From Escherichia phage moha: a DNA stretch of 64,000 nucleotides. Shown in pieces: positions 34,611-52,914 of this stretch. How positions within the stretch are numbered: the first letter of the stretch is position 1; each line of letters begins with the position of its first letter. The stretch lies in the sequence record MN850590.1, one strand, 5' to 3'. The notes below the pieces were generated by a model. The model saw only the letters and a list, made by a program, of their open reading frames with translations. It had not been told where the DNA came from and searched no databases. A program made the position numbers and the translations under genes.

Positions 34611-34613
34611 GTA

Positions 34614-34652
34614 GTTTACATCTTGATAGGACTATGTTATAGTAGTCCTATC
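34614..34652 (+). promoter_or_regulatory. promoter-early stem-loop (PeSL-type) cassette, copy 1
   Basis: GTTTAC, spacer, then GATAGGACTA-tgttatag-TAGTCCTATC: a perfect 10-bp inverted repeat around the TG-t-TATAGT -10. Confidence 0.65.
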
Positions 34653-34680
34653 AAAACAAATGAGTAAATGGAGAAATAAA

Positions 34681-36116: not shown

Positions 36117-36191
36117 GGCCCTGTAGCTCAATGGGAGAGCTGTCAGCTCATAACTGATAGGTAGCTGGATCGAAACCAGCCAGGGTCACCA
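36117..36191 (+). tRNA. tRNA with CAT anticodon (Met, or Ile2 if C34 is lysidinylated)
   Basis: Manual fold: acceptor GGCCCTG/CAGGGTC, D-stem GCTC/GAGC, anticodon stem GTCAG/CTGAT with loop CT-CAT-AA, T-stem GCTGG/CCAGC, discriminator A and encoded CCA. Confidence 0.8.
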
Positions 36192-36194
36192 ATC

Positions 36195-36271
<77 letters not shown>

Positions 36272-38169: not shown

Positions 38170-38334
38170 ATGACTACTTTAATTATTTGGTTCGATGAAA
38201 ATGAAGAAACATACTGTGTGAATATTGGTGAAAGTCCAATGCCTGAATTTGAATCCTCGGATAAAAACTCTGTTGTATCTTGGGCTGAAGGTTATAAAGC
38301 AGCTAAAGGTGACGTTGAAATAATTTACATCTAA
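38170..38334 (+). CDS. hypothetical small protein (54 aa)
   Basis: ATG after CAGAGGAGTAAACAAA, the same leader as at 1840-1862. Confidence 0.5.
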   Translation: MTTLIIWFDENEETYCVNIGESPMPEFESSDKNSVVSWAEGYKAAKGDVEIIYI

Positions 38335-38380
38335 GTAAGTTTATGTTATAGTAGTCCTATCAAATCAAGAGGAAAACAAA

Positions 38381-39321: not shown

Positions 39322-39924
39322 ATGCGAAACCAAAATAATGATATTGACTCAATGTTCGAAGAGTTCCGAGATAAGGTAAATCCACCTACGTCTTTAGTTG
39401 ATTCATTACGATATGTTGCAACCGGACGTAAATGGTACTGGTCGTCTTCTTATGAGACCACCGAGAAAACGGCTAGCCATAGCAGAAAATCTTTATTAGC
39501 CCCAGGTATTATGATTCATGATATCGGAGCTATTGCTAAACTAGTTGCAGACCATGATATTAGATTCACCGATTTCGTTGCTCCTACATGGTCTGTTTGT
39601 TGTTTAAACACTGAATGGGAATATATCAGCGAACGCTCTAAAGATTATTATGGTTTTAGAGATAAGCTTCTGAGGTCTAATATGTTTTATATCGATACAG
39701 AAGTTCTAGTCGATAATAAAAAATATTACTTTACGTTAATCATCGATTCTGAAACTATGTATGAAGGCAAGCCTTTGCTTAAAAGAGTTGATGCTTTAAG
39801 TGCTATTGATGCGCTTTATGAAACTATGGTTGTTAGTCCTAATTTCACTAACAATTTAATCCTTGAGCAATTTATTATGGAATGTAGAGAATATGTCAAA
39901 GCCAACCCTATACATGCCAAGTAA
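39322..39924 (+). CDS. hypothetical protein (200 aa)
   Basis: ATG after an AAGGAG Shine-Dalgarno. Confidence 0.55.
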   Translation: MRNQNNDIDSMFEEFRDKVNPPTSLVDSLRYVATGRKWYWSSSYETTEKTASHSRKSLLAPGIMIHDIGAIAKLVADHDIRFTDFVAPTWSVCCLNTEWEYISERSKDYYGFRDKLLRSNMFYIDTEVLVDNKKYYFTLIIDSETMYEGKPLLKRVDALSAIDALYETMVVSPNFTNNLILEQFIMECREYVKANPIHAK

Positions 39925-40285
39925 GCCCTGGGCGTATGAATACAAGCGTAAATTAATCCCAAATGAAGTACTATTTGGCCCTATTTTAGCTTTAGCATTT
40001 TTAATCTTTATGATTATAGGAGCTGTTTTAGATTCTAGTGAAGTTATATCGTCTGATGCAGTGTTTTTACTTATTATAGCCGGGTCGTTTATTGTGCCAT
40101 TTTTATTAATGCCTATTAACTGGGTGGGATATTGGTACCAAGGACGTCATTATAGAGCTCGAGTACGCGAATGGAAAATTCAATGTGCAAAAGCTCAAGC
40201 TCAGTATGATGAAGCTGTTAAAAAGTATGAATATGAAGAAGCTATGGAATTCGTTAAGGAAATAAGATGCAAAAGCCTGAACTGA
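39893..40285 (+). CDS. hypothetical membrane protein; start uncertain
   Basis: ORF with two hydrophobic segments; candidate starts at 39863, 39893 and 39914. Confidence 0.4.
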   Translation: MSKPTLYMPSKPWAYEYKRKLIPNEVLFGPILALAFLIFMIIGAVLDSSEVISSDAVFLLIIAGSFIVPFLLMPINWVGYWYQGRHYRARVREWKIQCAKAQAQYDEAVKKYEYEEAMEFVKEIRCKSLN

Positions 40286-40383
40286 ATTTATGCTGTTTAC
40301 GCTTCTCAAATGATTAGTTATAATGAACTCCTAGCTAGACGTGAAAATGAAACAATCGAAAACTTTATTAAGGAATGTAGAAA

Positions 40384-40689
40384 ATGAGTAAGATTATTGA
40401 AATTAAAGTACCAGAGTTTAATGATGCCAAATCCGCTTCAGATGCAATTTATAAACTTCTGAATCAAGCTGAACGTATCGAAGAAGAAGCAACAAAGATC
40501 GCAGACCAATATGCCGTATCATTTTCTGTAGGTGATTATGGTAGCGGTCGTACTTATTATCCTAAGGGTGAAATCGTATCCCAGTGGATGAAAAATGAAA
40601 TTGAAAATAACGGTGGCGATGTTAAGCGTGAAGGTAATGGTTACATTATTACTGAAGGTGCTTGGGTTTCGTCTTCTGCGTTGTGTTAA
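40384..40689 (+). CDS. small protein, paralog family member 1 (C-terminal GAWVSSSALC)
   Basis: 101-aa ORF; shares a C-terminal W-V-S/A-S-S-x-x-C motif with the next two ORFs. Confidence 0.55.
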   Translation: MSKIIEIKVPEFNDAKSASDAIYKLLNQAERIEEEATKIADQYAVSFSVGDYGSGRTYYPKGEIVSQWMKNEIENNGGDVKREGNGYIITEGAWVSSSALC

Positions 40690-40698
40690 GGAATCATT

Positions 40699-40971
40699 AT
40701 GTCTAAAGAACAAACCGAACTGGCTGAAGCTGTAGCAAAAATCTATGCAGCTATTGAGGCTGCCAAAGAAATTGCTGATAAACAAAACACAACATTCAAC
40801 TTGTACCCAGCTTATGGTATGGGTGGAACCTATCATTCACCCGGACATCTTAAAGCCGATCTTGAACGTTGTACAAAAAACGGCTATGCTGAATGGGCTG
40901 ACGTTTACCAATACGACTACAACCTGAGCCTCGAAACTGGTGGTTGGGTCGCATCTTCTCACACTTGCTAA
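40699..40971 (+). CDS. small protein, paralog family member 2 (C-terminal GGWVASSHTC)
   Basis: 90-aa ORF in tandem with the previous one. Confidence 0.55.
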   Translation: MSKEQTELAEAVAKIYAAIEAAKEIADKQNTTFNLYPAYGMGGTYHSPGHLKADLERCTKNGYAEWADVYQYDYNLSLETGGWVASSHTC

Positions 40972-40980
40972 GGAAACAAT

Positions 40981-41178
40981 ATGTCTCGTGAATTAGATTG
41001 TGCTGTACGTACGGCAGTAGCTGCCCTGGAAAACCTGTTCCAAATTGCAACAGAAGAACGCGAAGAAGTTACATTATGGATTGAAGATAACGCAGGTCTG
41101 AATCTCCAGGACGCGATCTCATTATCCCACAATAGTATCACTGTTCAAGGCTGGGTATCATCTAGTTATTCTTGCTAA
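40981..41178 (+). CDS. small protein, paralog family member 3 (C-terminal QGWVSSSYSC)
   Basis: 65-aa ORF in tandem with the previous two. Confidence 0.55.
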   Translation: MSRELDCAVRTAVAALENLFQIATEEREEVTLWIEDNAGLNLQDAISLSHNSITVQGWVSSSYSC

Positions 41179-41182
41179 AACA

Positions 41183-41221
41183 GTTTACAACAAGATAGGG
41201 CTATGTTATAGTAGTCCTATC
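41183..41221 (+). promoter_or_regulatory. PeSL-type cassette, copy 2
   Basis: GTTTAC, then GATAGGGCTA-tgttatag-TAGTCCTATC (one mismatch in the left arm). Confidence 0.6.
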
Positions 41222-41240
41222 AAAACAAATGGAGTCCACA

Positions 41241-41480
41241 ATGATTTATTACGAAAGTATCGGAACCAAAGTGGTTGGTAAAACCATTACTCGTGAAAAG
41301 TTTGCAAAGATATTCGATATGCGTTATAAAAAATCTGAACACAAAGGCATCCGATTCGAAGATGCGCACTGTACAATTTGCCCTTATAATGAAGACATAA
41401 ACGGTACAATCGTTCCATTGGTAGAGGCTTCACATGATGACCTCTGGGATGAATATAATATCGCATGTCGTGAAATTTAA
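41241..41480 (+). CDS. hypothetical protein (79 aa)
   Basis: Start taken at the ATG after the GGAG in the leader; the ORF track start (41229) lies inside the Shine-Dalgarno. Confidence 0.5.
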   Translation: MIYYESIGTKVVGKTITREKFAKIFDMRYKKSEHKGIRFEDAHCTICPYNEDINGTIVPLVEASHDDLWDEYNIACREI

Positions 41481-41508: not shown

Positions 41509-42465
41509 ATGATGTTAGTTATTGGTTCTCGTGCACTTCACTATCACGGTCTTATTGATTCTAGCGCTATTAAAAATAGTGATTGGGACTTTATTGCGGA
41601 CCAATGTTCTTGGAATGCATTCAAAAATCAAATGATGGGTGTATATGTTCACCAAGATAACCCTGATGTCCAAGTTTTCAAATGCTTCCATAATGGACGC
41701 GAAACTCATTTTGAAGCATATATTGTTCCGGCAATCACTAATGTCCGTGAATTAGTCGGTGAACTCACTCCTGAAGATTTCACGTCTTCTTATGACCTTT
41801 TAAAATACGCCAAGAAAAATTTGACTAAAGACCGTTTGAACGGGTTTTACTGGGCAACTCCTGAGATATGTCTTGCAATTAAGATGTCTCATCGTTTCAA
41901 GAAAAATAATCCATTCTTTTTAAAGACTATGAACCATATTCAGTATCTTCGTGGTAAAGGTGTTACACTGAACGATGAACTTACTGAAATTATGCTGAAA
42001 CGCCAGAAAGAAACCTTGAACTATGCTCACCCAGTTCTTGACACTTCTAAAAGTGCGTTCTTTAAAGATGACATCTATACATATGACCATGATACTATTC
42101 ATGAAGCCATTGCACTAACAGACCGTCCGGCGTATACATTTTATATGAAAGATGGTTCTGAAGTCATGACCTCACGCGAGAAGTTCGAATCGTTACCAGA
42201 AATGGTCAAATTGGCCGGCGTATACGAAGAATCATGTGTACTAGCATTAGAACGTTCTCAAATTCCTAATGACTTTAAAATTAACCCTGAAGCCAGTTTT
42301 ATGATGGCATTGGAAAAAGTCTGTACAAGCATCACCTCTGGTTGGTTCCGTGAGTACGCATACGAGAACTATTATGAAGTAGTGGCTATGTATCATAAGC
42401 TCGGCAAAAATGATTACATCAAACGGTTTAAAGAAAATTTTCATATGGTAAAACCTTTCAAATAA
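41509..42465 (+). CDS. hypothetical protein (318 aa)
   Basis: Long ORF; N-terminus IGSRALHYHG...SDWDF loosely resembles a nucleotidyltransferase GS...DxD motif. Confidence 0.55.
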   Translation: MMLVIGSRALHYHGLIDSSAIKNSDWDFIADQCSWNAFKNQMMGVYVHQDNPDVQVFKCFHNGRETHFEAYIVPAITNVRELVGELTPEDFTSSYDLLKYAKKNLTKDRLNGFYWATPEICLAIKMSHRFKKNNPFFLKTMNHIQYLRGKGVTLNDELTEIMLKRQKETLNYAHPVLDTSKSAFFKDDIYTYDHDTIHEAIALTDRPAYTFYMKDGSEVMTSREKFESLPEMVKLAGVYEESCVLALERSQIPNDFKINPEASFMMALEKVCTSITSGWFREYAYENYYEVVAMYHKLGKNDYIKRFKENFHMVKPFK

Positions 42466-42477
42466 TTTCGCAAAACT

Positions 42478-42515
42478 GTTTACACAATTATAGGACTATG
42501 TTACAGTAGTCCTAT
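42478..42515 (+). promoter_or_regulatory. PeSL-type cassette, copy 3
   Basis: GTTTAC, then ATAGGACTA-tgttacag-TAGTCCTAT; both arms are complementary to each other. Confidence 0.6.
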
Positions 42516-42536
42516 TAAAAACATGAGGAGAATATT

Positions 42537-42842
42537 ATGAAATTAACAGACACCAATCGAATCGGTCTTTTAACAATATTTGCATCACCTTTTTACGCAG
42601 CCCTTTCTGTTGCAGTATTACAAAAGGCTTACGATATGGATGGTGTTCCTGGTTTTGTATTCTTATCGCCGTTTTTGCTATTCGTTGGAGCTTTGTTATT
42701 ATATGCCACGACTAGTTTCGACCATAATGTCTGGGTCAATTATAAACGTAAATTGACCGAAGAAGAACACGCAGAAGCTCGTAAAAAAGCTATTGAATCT
42801 ACCAATCTAGAAAATTTCATTAAAGAATGTCGAGGAAAATAA
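42537..42842 (+). CDS. hypothetical membrane protein (101 aa)
   Basis: Two hydrophobic segments; GAGGAG Shine-Dalgarno. Confidence 0.55.
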   Translation: MKLTDTNRIGLLTIFASPFYAALSVAVLQKAYDMDGVPGFVFLSPFLLFVGALLLYATTSFDHNVWVNYKRKLTEEEHAEARKKAIESTNLENFIKECRGK

Positions 42843-52439: not shown

Positions 52440-52649
52440 ATGCTTTACGATTATACTGGAAAATCTGAAGACGGTGTACTTGAACTTTTACCTGAAAGCG
52501 CTGAAGATGACGATATGGCGATGGTGATGTTTTGTAAAAATGGTCCTGGGGATAAGGGATGGATTTATCTTCGTCAAGAAAATGACTTAATTGTTTTGGA
52601 CCCTAAACAAGTTGAAGAGCTTTATCAACATTTAAAACACAATCGGTAG
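52440..52649 (+). CDS. hypothetical small acidic protein (69 aa)
   Basis: ATG after a GAGGA Shine-Dalgarno. Confidence 0.45.
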   Translation: MLYDYTGKSEDGVLELLPESAEDDDMAMVMFCKNGPGDKGWIYLRQENDLIVLDPKQVEELYQHLKHNR

Positions 52650-52686
52650 TTTACAACTTGATAGGACTATGTTATAGTAGTCCTAT
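52649..52686 (+). promoter_or_regulatory. PeSL-type cassette, copy 4
   Basis: GTTTAC, then GATAGGACTA-tgttatag-TAGTCCTATC; identical to copy 1. Confidence 0.65.
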
Positions 52687-52914
52687 CAAAACAAATGGAG
52701 AACAAAATGAAACTTTTGCTTATCGCTTATGTTGTAGTACAATACAATTATCCGATGTTTACGTATAACATGGTAAATGGTGTAATGAATCTTATTGAAG
52801 CGAGTATGGTAAAATGACCTGTGAAATGGATCTTATTTAATTTTTATAGAAATCAGGTTGATGCTCGTCAGAATGATTTGGTGAATTTTGTTGAAACTTT
52901 AATTGGTGAATAAT

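What the first reader, a model, noticed from the sequence alone, without database searches (positions are those of the whole stretch)
40384..41178. Tandem family of three small proteins sharing a C-terminal W-V-S-S-x-x-C motif
Three consecutive ORFs of 101, 90 and 65 aa end in GAWVSSSALC, GGWVASSHTC and QGWVSSSYSC and all have acidic, helical N-terminal halves. This looks like local triplication followed by divergence, which often marks genes under diversifying pressure such as host-range or anti-defence functions. The conserved C-terminal cysteine could be a modification or metal-binding site.
Basis: seen in the sequence. Interest (0 to 1): 0.5.

Follow-up and report, generated by a model that had tools for sequence, protein, structure and literature searches.

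The report
Cysteine-tailed small proteins beside phage nucleotidyltransferase
Three small phage genes ending in the same tryptophan-serine-serine-cysteine tail are real members of a wider phage family that almost always sits just upstream of an uncharacterised nucleotidyltransferase-like gene, which points to a two-part system of unknown function.

Summary
Three adjacent + strand ORFs (40384-40689, 40699-40971, 40981-41178; 101, 90 and 65 aa) end in WVSSSALC, WVASSHTC and WVSSSYSC. Chance predicts 0.008 such ORFs in the window.

The window is an RB69/APCEc01-like T4-type coliphage.
- P1 and P2 are full-length homologues (profile comparison 98% probability). P3 shares only the last 14-15 residues with them.
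- The copies are old paralogues with orthologues in many phage genera.
- They are under purifying selection (dN/dS 0.18-0.25), so this is not a recent triplication under diversifying pressure.

The new result is context. The tail W-x-x-S-S-x(0-3)-Cys-stop marks 1-5 tandem small genes upstream of a ~300-aa protein (window 41509-42465, Pfam DUF7277+DUF7275):
- 73-74 of 80 viral contigs carrying that protein have them.
- 46 of 47 loci found through the small proteins have the protein downstream.
- This holds in unrelated phage lineages.

Best reading: a conserved phage module in which the tail is the handle through which variable small proteins engage the enzyme, as substrates or regulators. No experiment or publication was found.

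The parts
40296..40324 (+). Promoter-like site (TTTACG-17 nt-TATAAT) 60 nt upstream of P1. It coincides with a mosaic junction against phage vB_Eco_F31.
   Evidence: Consensus scan. The scan as a whole is not above chance (22 sites vs 18.8 expected). The window/F31 alignment is unalignable upstream of about 40295 and nearly identical downstream.
40384..40689 (+). P1: 101-aa small protein, phrog_899, the RB69ORF139c type. It has an N-terminal helix, a DYGSGRTYYP loop, a beta-hairpin and the tail W94-V-S-S-S-A-L-C101.
   Evidence: (E 4.8e-22). AlphaFold2 model: mean pLDDT 90.8.
40663..40686 (+). Tail of P1 (WVSSSALC).
   Evidence: Invariant W/S/C columns.
40699..40971 (+). P2: 90-aa paralogue, phrog_899, the RB69ORF137c type, with an AYGMGGTY loop and the tail WVASSHTC.
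   Evidence: E 5e-19. Full-length profile homology to the P1 type.
40945..40968 (+). Tail of P2 (WVASSHTC).
40981..41178 (+). P3: 65-aa protein, phrog_4882, RB69ORF136c. It has the same tail (WVSSSYSC), but its body is not detectably homologous to P1/P2.
   Evidence: (E 7.7e-37).
41152..41175 (+). Tail of P3 (WVSSSYSC).
41182..41244 (+). Repeated promoter-plus-stem-loop element (GTTTACA...ATAGGGCTATGTTATAGTAGTCCTAT...GGAG...ATG) between P3 and the next ORF. It resembles the PeSL cassettes described for T4-type phages.
   Evidence: Promoter-like match at 41184-41212. Copies at 52648-52710, 34613-34662, 42472-42520 and 38318-38368. PeSLs are described in PMC2839356 and PMC4122927, whose titles and abstracts I saw; what PeSLs consist of rests on my own knowledge.
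41229..41480 (+). 83-aa ORF (phrog_3723, the RB69ORF135c type) lying between the small-gene trio and the enzyme. It lacks the tail and is not part of the module in most lineages.
   Evidence: A counterpart is annotated in JS98 (gp123, 'similar to RB69 ORF135c'). The Marfa gene in the same position was not compared. There is no such gene between the small genes and the enzyme in 44RR2.8t, phiR1-RT or phiWec190.
41509..42465 (+). 318-aa nucleotidyltransferase-fold protein (Pfam DUF7277 + DUF7275, phrog_2141, RB69ORF134c type). It is the conserved partner gene of the small proteins.

Best explanation
The three ORFs are genuine, probably early-expressed genes of a phage-restricted family of small, mildly acidic alpha/beta proteins. 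Their defining feature is a C-terminal tail, W-x-x-S-S-x(0-3)-Cys-COOH, carried on variable bodies.

They are the upstream half of a conserved two-part module. The other half is the nucleotidyltransferase-fold protein at 41509-42465.

Most likely the tail is the common handle through which each small protein engages that enzyme. The Trp anchors the last beta-strand in the fold. The Ser-Ser...Cys end protrudes and enters the enzyme's active or binding site.

My preferred sub-mechanism is that the enzyme transfers a nucleotidyl (or phosphoryl) group to a tail hydroxyl or thiol, so the small proteins are its substrates. The alternative is that they tune or inhibit it.

Shown: the genes, the tail, purifying selection, the linkage, and the enzyme's fold and catalytic motif.
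Inferred: physical interaction, what the tail does, and any chemistry.
For: 1. Real genes. Each has a ribosome-binding site and ATG. dN/dS is 0.18-0.25. Synonymous variation occurs inside the conserved tail. They hit PHROG families.

2. Linkage.
- All 10 phage records inspected that carry a close full-length enzyme homologue (39% identity or more) have 2-5 tail ORFs next to it. These include Straboviridae of several genera, Phapecoctavirus phiWec190, Otagovirus phiPsa347 and Menderavirus BUCT608, where the small genes lie downstream instead.
- In 80 IMG/VR loci found through the enzyme, 73 have 1-5 same-strand tail ORFs (74 counting a WDSSTC variant).
- Those loci hold 216 such ORFs, all 2-4626 nt upstream (median 883). 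There are none downstream and one on the opposite strand.
- Conversely, 46 of 47 loci found through small-protein motifs have the enzyme 0.2-2.4 kb downstream. The exception is a 3.6-kb contig.
- 5 of 5 metagenome-assembled-genome (MAG) contigs also show the pair.

3. Modular tail.
- Bodies differ while the tail is constant. P3-type proteins share only the last 14-15 residues.
- Long forms of 120-172 aa carry other N-terminal parts with no Pfam domain.
- The tail's W, S and C are the only invariant columns apart from the initiator Met.

4. The P1 model puts residues 93-96 (the residue before the tail plus W-V-S) in a beta-strand. The last residues have low confidence (mean pLDDT 65 for residue 101), consistent with an exposed end.

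5. Enzyme.
- Model pLDDT is 91.6.
- G-S, D-x-D and a third acidic residue are invariant across 39 homologues.
- These relatives all transfer NMP to a hydroxyl of tRNA or of an antibiotic. That is established knowledge for these families and is summarised for MenT in PMC11375011.
Against: - There is no direct evidence of interaction or modification. Co-folding could not be run.
- At least two enzyme-bearing loci (L037, L088) have no detectable tail ORF within 6 kb. Four more have only a distant '...RWTTC' protein 4.5 kb away. The enzyme can therefore exist without recognisable partners.
- Shorter or more diverged enzyme homologues lack small partners: BillNye, WilliamBoone, KVP40, DC31 and the full-length but 27%-identical DSS3_VP1.
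- In one subfamily the motif also occurs internally (DWLNSSC-YGE), so a free C-terminus is not always needed.
- In the window, the trio and the enzyme are separated by another ORF and a promoter-like element.
- Many surveyed loci are related T4-like phages, so the counts are not independent events.
- Conserved neighbourhood alone does not prove a shared pathway.
Confidence: 0.55

Rival explanations
1. Toxin-antitoxin-like module. The enzyme is a MenT/AbiEii-like translation-blocking nucleotidyltransferase used for host shut-off or as an addiction element. The small proteins are antitoxin-like inhibitors or regulators that bind it, for example through their long N-terminal helix, or that induce its auto-inactivation.
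For: The best structural matches of the enzyme are MenT1, MenT3 and MenT4 toxins. The small genes lie upstream of the enzyme, as antitoxins usually do. MenA1 is a small antitoxin that contacts MenT1 through one extended helix (PMC11375011), and P1 has a 29-residue N-terminal helix.
Confidence: 0.2
2. The small proteins are independent host-takeover or anti-defence effectors, and the terminal Cys serves as a metal ligand, redox site or site of modification by a host enzyme. Their position next to the enzyme would be only shared residence in an accessory-gene island.
For: The genes lie in a hyperplastic region bounded by promoter/stem-loop repeats and a mosaic junction. Promoter-like early signals are present. 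NAD-salvage-like and Sir2-like genes, which may relate to defence or counter-defence, lie within 6 kb in 22 of 99 loci. The proteins are small and acidic, as many phage inhibitors are.
Against: Adjacency to the same enzyme persists across unrelated phage lineages whose surrounding genes differ. Selection is purifying rather than diversifying at gene level. The proteins were not found away from the enzyme.
Confidence: 0.13
3. The tail is purely structural. Trp closes the small fold, and the terminal Cys mediates oligomerisation or binds a metal (for example an intermolecular Zn or Fe-S site), without entering any enzyme.
For: The Trp lies in a predicted beta-strand. One subfamily has two WxxSSC units per chain, giving two Cys. 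The motif tolerates 0-3 residues between SS and Cys.
Against: This does not explain the linkage to the enzyme. It also does not explain why a body with no detectable homology (P3 type) keeps exactly the same tail. No other conserved metal ligands appear in the alignments.
Confidence: 0.1
4. Artefact: the ORFs are not genes, and the shared ending reflects a repeated DNA element.
For: None beyond the short size of the ORFs.
Against: Synonymous codon differences occur within the tail. dN/dS is well below 1. There are hundreds of orthologues and strong ribosome-binding sites. Self-BLAST finds no repeat covering the coding parts.
Confidence: 0.01

Closest known systems
MenAT / AbiE nucleotidyltransferase toxin-antitoxin systems (DUF1814 toxins MenT1/3/4 and AbiEii, with MenA or AbiEi partners)
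   Different: There is no sequence membership: no Pfam DUF1814 or PADLOC hit. The enzyme carries a large, highly conserved C-terminal domain (DUF7275) with no structural match. The partners are 1-5 paralogues defined by a C-terminal W-x-x-S-S-x-x-C tail and unrelated to MenA1, MenA3 or AbiEi. The module is carried by virulent phages, and only 5 MAG contigs were found among 185,579 species genomes.
Antibiotic O-nucleotidyltransferases ANT(2'')-Ia and LnuA
   Different: They act on small molecules, have no partner proteins, and have no DUF7275 domain.
Protein-modifying pol-beta nucleotidyltransferases (MNT of HEPN-MNT systems, GlnE, GlnD, DrrA); recalled from my own knowledge and not tested here
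   Same: They provide a precedent for this superfamily nucleotidylylating a side chain of a partner protein.
   Different: Known acceptors are Tyr (or Thr), not a C-terminal Ser-Ser-x-x-Cys tail. The partners are HEPN, PII, GS or Rab proteins with no resemblance to these small proteins.
Phage NrdC.11-type minimal nucleotidyltransferases reported to make competitor cyclic dinucleotides (Ho et al., bioRxiv 10.1101/2022.06.09.495361)
   Same: They are phage-encoded pol-beta-type enzymes with a GS...SDxD site (this one has GS...SDWD). They sit in accessory regions, often near NAD-salvage genes (compare).
   Different: They are a different family. In that family GS and SDxD are 9 residues apart; here they are 16 apart. 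No RB69, JS98, 44RR or phiR1-RT entries appear in their Table S1. Aeromonas phage CC2 appears there with a 322-aa protein of another locus tag (F485_gp357), while its homologue of this enzyme lies next to F485_gp171. No tail-bearing partners are described.
PHROG families 899 and 4882 (unknown function)
   Same: P1 and P2 match phrog_899 and P3 matches phrog_4882 with strong E-values.
   Different: These are database clusters without a described function, motif or context. PHROGs splits into two families what the tail and the gene context unite.

Membership tests
Tail-bearing small-protein family (phrog_899 / phrog_4882) | HMM match to the PHROG profiles | tested here: met
   P1 E 4.8e-22 and P2 E 5e-19 to phrog_899. 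P3 E 7.7e-37 to phrog_4882.
Tail-bearing small-protein family (phrog_899 / phrog_4882) | C-terminal W-x-x-S-[SN]-x(0-3)-Cys as the last residues | tested here: met
   All three window proteins have it. So do 216 ORFs in 80 viral loci, with tail length 8 in 134 of 178 unique tails.
Tail-bearing small-protein family (phrog_899 / phrog_4882) | Common descent of all three window proteins over their whole length | tested here: inconclusive
   P1 and P2: yes (hhalign 98.2%, E 4e-14). P3 vs P1/P2: only the last 14-15 residues align (17% and 82%). P3 types cluster separately once the tail is removed.
Tail-bearing small-protein family (phrog_899 / phrog_4882) | Location next to a DUF7277-DUF7275 gene on the same strand | tested here: met
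   In the window, the P3 stop codon ends at 41178 and the enzyme starts at 41509. Surveys.
MenAT / AbiE (DUF1814) toxin-antitoxin | Toxin matches the DUF1814/AbiEii sequence family | tested here: not met
   Pfam scan at E up to 0.1 returns only DUF7275 and DUF7277. PADLOC and NCBIfam return no hit. A PDB sequence-profile search finds no NTase.
MenAT / AbiE (DUF1814) toxin-antitoxin | Minimal nucleotidyltransferase fold with GS...DxD and a third acidic residue | tested here: met
MenAT / AbiE (DUF1814) toxin-antitoxin | Partner homologous to a known antitoxin (MenA1, MenA3/AbiEi) | tested here: not met
MenAT / AbiE (DUF1814) toxin-antitoxin | Growth inhibition by the enzyme, relieved by the partner | not testable with these tools
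   This needs expression experiments.
RiPP-like precursor-plus-enzyme cluster | Short unstructured precursor peptides next to a known RiPP maturase (radical SAM, YcaO, LanM and similar) | tested here: not met
   P1 is predicted to be a folded 101-aa domain (pLDDT 90.8). No such enzyme domain occurs among the neighbours scanned.
Ubiquitin-like sulfur carriers (ThiS/MoaD type) | Beta-grasp fold ending in Gly-Gly, next to an E1-like adenylyltransferase | tested here: not met
   The proteins end in Cys, not Gly-Gly. No beta-grasp match was found. The neighbouring enzyme has a pol-beta-type fold, not an E1 fold. The 'sulfurtransferase' label in phage F31 belongs to a different upstream gene that is absent from the window.
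Phage NrdC.11-type NTases (Ho et al. 2022) | Catalytic signature GS-x-AY[GAN]T-x4-SDxD and listing among the 240 family members | tested here: not met
   The window enzyme reads GSRALHYHGLIDSSAIKNSDWD, with a longer spacer. RB69-, JS98-, 44RR- and phiR1-type entries are absent from Table S1.

The most novel reading that the evidence does not exclude
The module is a previously unrecognised phage system. In it, a dedicated MenT/ANT-like nucleotidyltransferase covalently nucleotidylylates the Ser-Ser...Cys tail of a set of small scaffold proteins, or primes a nucleotide chain on that tail. This would create protein-nucleotide conjugates whose variable bodies direct them to different host or defence targets.
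Probability: 0.2. Interest if true: 0.85.

Novelty: new variant of a known kind. Interest (0 to 1): 0.6.

Why it matters
The small proteins and their partner enzyme are catalogued only as 'unknown function' (two PHROGs and two Pfam DUFs). Full-text searches for those names returned nothing.

The enzyme family has over 2000 members, almost all in phages. The linkage with 1-5 tail-tagged small proteins spans T4-like phages of many hosts, jumbo phages, Phapecoctavirus, Otagovirus and Menderavirus.

If the tail is a recognition or modification site, this would be a new way for phages to use a nucleotidyltransferase. It would also give an easily testable system: RB69 and JS98 are laboratory phages, the proteins are small, and three point mutations define the tail.

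If the module instead behaves like MenAT/AbiE, it would show that lytic phages carry their own version of one of the most common bacterial abortive-infection toxin folds.

Either outcome would annotate several genes in hundreds of therapeutic-candidate coliphage and Klebsiella phage genomes.

Tried and rejected
- **Known families for the three proteins.** Pfam, NCBIfam and PADLOC scans gave only sub-threshold noise.
- **Profile search of 1.84 billion representatives.** It returned 18 hits. The one large protein (P0192, 1931 aa, 13 matched stretches) is an adhesin whose repeats 'GYGHFTVNTDGSWTYT' resemble the beta-hairpin before the tail. I read this as a generic hairpin resemblance, not homology.
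- **Rosetta-stone fusions.** None of the 120 enzyme homologues held contains the tail motif.
- **Long forms of the small proteins.** Ten were scanned and none has a Pfam domain in the extra N-terminal part.
- **tRNA linkage.** This was suggested by the MenT similarity and by tRNA genes 4 kb upstream in the window. Only 6 of 56 diverse loci have a tRNA gene within about 6 kb, so it was rejected as a general feature.
- **Intermolecular Cys or metal clasp with the enzyme.** Enzyme Cys243 is Tyr in Acj9 and BUCT608, which do have partners. Cys272 is also present in DSS3_VP1 and DC31, which lack partners. There is no clean correlation.
- **Identity with the phage NTases of Ho et al.** They are a different family.
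- **The 'sulfurtransferase' annotation near the hit in phage F31.** It belongs to another gene that the window does not have.
- **Technical failures.** A locus search with the mixed alignment failed for lack of a conserved stretch, so subfamily alignments were used instead. One dN/dS script timed out and was rewritten.

Full report
**What is there**

The window is an RB69/APCEc01-like Mosigvirus (T4-type coliphage). Bases 40300-41250 are 99.3% identical to Escherichia phage APCEc01, and 137 phage records cover at least 80% of that stretch.

Three consecutive + strand ORFs occupy the reported coordinates:
- P1: 40384-40689, 101 aa
- P2: 40699-40971, 90 aa
- P3: 40981-41178, 65 aa

They end in WVSSSALC, WVASSHTC and WVSSSYSC. 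Each has an AAGGA(A) ribosome-binding sequence and an ATG, and the spacers are 9 nt.

No other ORF in the window carries such an ending. The number expected by chance is 0.008 for a relaxed tail and 0.0001 for the strict one. The tail codons differ at synonymous sites, so the protein is what is conserved.

**Are the three proteins one family?**

Pairwise BLASTP is weak (E 3e-4, 4e-3, 3e-4) and centred on the C-terminus.
- P1 and P2 both match phrog_899; P3 matches phrog_4882. None matches Pfam, NCBIfam or PADLOC above noise.
- With profiles built from orthologues, the P1 and P2 types are homologous over their whole length (hhalign probability 98.2%, E 4e-14, residues 20-101 vs 6-90).
- The P3 type aligns to them only over the last 14-15 residues.
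- After removing the last 12 residues, 188 of 220 unique tail-bearing proteins fall into one transitive BLAST cluster. The P3 type forms a separate cluster of 18.

So P1 and P2 are true paralogues. P3 shares the tail and the general layout (N-terminal helix, then strands), but no demonstrable common body.

**The copies are old and under purifying selection**

tblastn finds P1-type genes in 397 phage records and P3-type genes in 251. Hosts include Escherichia, Klebsiella, Enterobacter, Aeromonas, Yersinia, Serratia and Edwardsiella.

Other phages carry more types in tandem:
- JS98 and Marfa have five.
- One further type has the motif twice (DWLNSSC-YGE...IWYPSSC).
- Another type ends in FWFSSSMSC.

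NG86 dN/dS medians among Mosigvirus and Dhakavirus orthologues are 0.20 (P1), 0.25 (P2) and 0.18 (P3). The neighbouring enzyme gives 0.07 and other neighbours 0.09-0.15. The picture of a recent local triplication under diversifying pressure is therefore not supported. Caveats: dS is high (about 1.2-1.3) for P1/P2, and no site models were run.

**The tail**

Across 29 and 39 aligned sequences the invariant columns are the Trp, one Ser and the terminal Cys, plus the initiator Met in the first alignment. The second Ser is more than 90% conserved.
- In 178 unique tails from viral contigs, W-x-x-S-S-x-x-C accounts for 134 and W-x-x-S-S-C for 37.
- A few have one or three residues before the Cys, which is always the last residue.

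**The context is the main finding**

Every phage locus fetched through P1 also has a ~300-320-aa gene a short way downstream. This is the homologue of window ORF 41509-42465 (318 aa; Pfam DUF7277 E 1.2e-27 plus DUF7275 E 1.2e-77). The phages include the unrelated Phapecoctavirus phiWec190.

Working from the enzyme:
- Phage records with a close full-length homologue have 2-4 tail ORFs beside it: phiPsa347 (Otagovirus), Acj9 and BUCT608 (Menderavirus, where they lie downstream).
- None was found beside four shorter homologues (BillNye, WilliamBoone, KVP40, DC31) or the full-length but 27%-identical DSS3_VP1 homologue.

In 80 IMG/VR loci retrieved with the enzyme alignment:
- 73 carry 1-5 same-strand tail ORFs (74 with a WDSSTC variant).
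- All 216 ORFs lie upstream of the enzyme, 2-4626 nt away (median 883).
- None lies downstream and one lies on the opposite strand.

Conversely, 46 of 47 loci retrieved with small-protein motifs contain the enzyme 0.2-2.4 kb downstream. The exception is a 3.6-kb contig that ends too early.

A scan of one genome per bacterial and archaeal species found only five hits. All are MAG contigs, and all have tail ORFs just upstream.

True exceptions exist. L037 and L088 have the enzyme and no tail ORF. Four related loci have only a distant '...RWTTC' protein. The contigs range from about 100 kb to 370 kb, but many are T4-like, so the counts overstate the number of independent events.

**The partner enzyme**

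It has 2131 homologues at E up to 1e-3. Among 39 diverse ones, G6, S7, D25, D27 and E69 are invariant. So is a long list of residues in the C-terminal domain, including motifs such as GVYEExCVLALERSQIP and KVCTSITSGWFREYA.

The model is confident (pLDDT 91.6, pTM 0.85).
- Foldseek's best PDB matches are MenT1 and a fungal nucleotidyltransferase-like protein (probability 1.0).
- Sequence searches of the PDB find nothing.

The protein is thus a pol-beta-type minimal nucleotidyltransferase fused to a novel, very conserved helical domain. MenT toxins extend tRNA 3' ends and are controlled by small antitoxins. MenA1 binds MenT1 through one extended helix and induces auto-phosphorylation (PMC11375011).

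**How it most likely works**

Shown:
- The genes are real.
- They share a tail on variable bodies.
- They are under purifying selection.
- They are almost always found next to this enzyme, across lineages whose surrounding genes differ.
- The enzyme has an intact nucleotidyltransferase motif.

Inferred: the tail is the common element through which each small protein engages the enzyme.

I favour a substrate role. The structural relatives all transfer NMP to a hydroxyl, and the tail offers an invariant Ser pair next to a thiol and a free carboxylate that could bind the catalytic metal. One enzyme with several conserved, differently bodied partners also resembles one-enzyme, many-substrate arrangements more than a toxin-antitoxin pair.

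I put about 0.8 on functional coupling of some kind, about 0.55 on the tail being the coupling element, and about 0.2-0.3 on covalent modification of the tail.

The main rival is a MenAT-like arrangement with the small proteins as inhibitors or regulators (0.2). Its support is the fold match and the gene order. Against it are the multiple paralogues, conservation of the tail rather than the helix, and enzyme-only loci.

The remaining rivals are:
- Independent effectors that merely share an accessory island (0.13).
- A purely structural or metal-binding tail (0.1). The internal copy of the motif in the two-motif subfamily shows that a free C-terminus is not always required, which weighs somewhat towards a structural or metal role.
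- Non-genes (0.01).

**Local organisation**

A promoter-like site (TTTACG-17-TATAAT) lies at 40296-40324. This is exactly where the window and phage F31 stop being alignable upstream.

A 50-63-nt promoter-plus-stem-loop element follows P3 at 41182-41244 and recurs four more times in the window. It resembles the PeSL cassettes proposed to mediate modular shuffling in T4-type phages (PMC2839356, PMC4122927).

The trio thus looks like one early-type transcription unit. The 83-aa ORF plus the enzyme look like the next one. This is consensus-level evidence only.

**Comparison with what is known**

Full-text searches found no paper mentioning DUF7275, DUF7277 or the RB69 ORF names. The phage nucleotidyltransferases of Ho et al. 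(competitor cyclic dinucleotides) are the NrdC.11 family, which is different.

I therefore rate the finding as a new variant of a known kind: nucleotidyltransferase-plus-small-partner modules. The most novel reading not excluded is a phage protein-nucleotidylylation system.

Noticed in passing
window 41182-41244; also 52648-52710, 34613-34662, 42472-42520, 38318-38368: A conserved element of about 50-63 nt (GTTTACA..ATAGGACTATGTTATAGTAGTCCTAT..AAAACAAATGGAG..ATG) recurs five times on the + strand, at 80-92% identity. It combines a promoter-like -35/-10 pair, a stem-loop overlapping the -10, and a ribosome-binding site. It looks like the PeSL promoter/stem-loop cassettes of T4-type phages, and it explains the extra 'places per record' in the megablast.
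   Followed up: partly
window ~40295 (compare L001 ~3996): There is a mosaic junction. Downstream of about 40296 the window and phage vB_Eco_F31 are nearly identical. Upstream they are unalignable and encode different genes: a 140-aa ORF at 39863-40285 in the window, and a 119-aa CDS labelled 'sulfurtransferase' in F31. The last 25 codons of the F31-type gene (...ENFIKECRK) survive in the window at 40311-40387 as a remnant. A similar C-terminus (...ENFIKECRGK) ends the window ORF 42537-42842.
   Followed up: partly
L005, L009, L010, L011, L007, L014 and IMG/VR loci (e.g. L085, L088, L144, L054-L063): NAD-related genes lie within 6 kb of the nucleotidyltransferase-fold gene in 22 of 99 loci from several lineages. 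Nampt-like genes occur in 12 loci, four of which also have a PRPP-synthetase-like gene. Sir2/CobB-like genes occur in 10. No background rate was computed.
   Followed up: partly
window 36117-36188 and 36195-36268: Two tRNA genes lie on the + strand about 4 kb upstream of the trio (Rfam, 59 and 71 bits). tRNA proximity to the module is not general (6 of 56 loci).
   Followed up: yes
P0192 (1931 aa, from the representative library): A giant adhesin-like protein with tandem repeats 'GSNGYGHFTVNTDGSWTYTADSAH' matched the small-protein profile in 13 stretches (E 1.1e-13). This probably reflects a shared hairpin pattern (F-x-V-x-x-DG-x-W) rather than homology.
   Followed up: partly
L143-L147 (genome contigs): All five 'bacterial genome' hits to the enzyme are MAG contigs (Saccharibacteria, Bacteriovoracales, Thermosynechococcus and others) that carry the phage module. 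L146 also has 12 tRNA genes and a tmRNA-like gene within 4 kb. These contigs look like phage DNA binned into MAGs.
   Followed up: no
L054, L055, L057, L087 (about 1090-1540): In the enzyme-bearing loci that lack a canonical tail ORF, a 66-67-aa protein lies 4.5 kb upstream. It reads MKYHLFSFDIYYPSGGAKDY...GYIDESRWTTC and also ends in Cys three residues after a Trp. It may be a very divergent relative.
   Followed up: no
window 41229-41480: The 83-aa ORF between P3 and the enzyme (phrog_3723) has three Cys and ends ...LWDEYNIACREI. It lacks the Ser-Ser and the terminal Cys, and it is confined to some T4-like genera.
   Followed up: partly
H195, Acinetobacter phage phi1_092060 (PQ885451.1 92725-93555): The depositor labelled the enzyme homologue in this phage 'DefenseFinder protein'. 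Two other records call it 'nucleotidyltransferase' (M5.1, vB_AbaM_Kimel). The model behind the DefenseFinder label was not identified.
   Followed up: no
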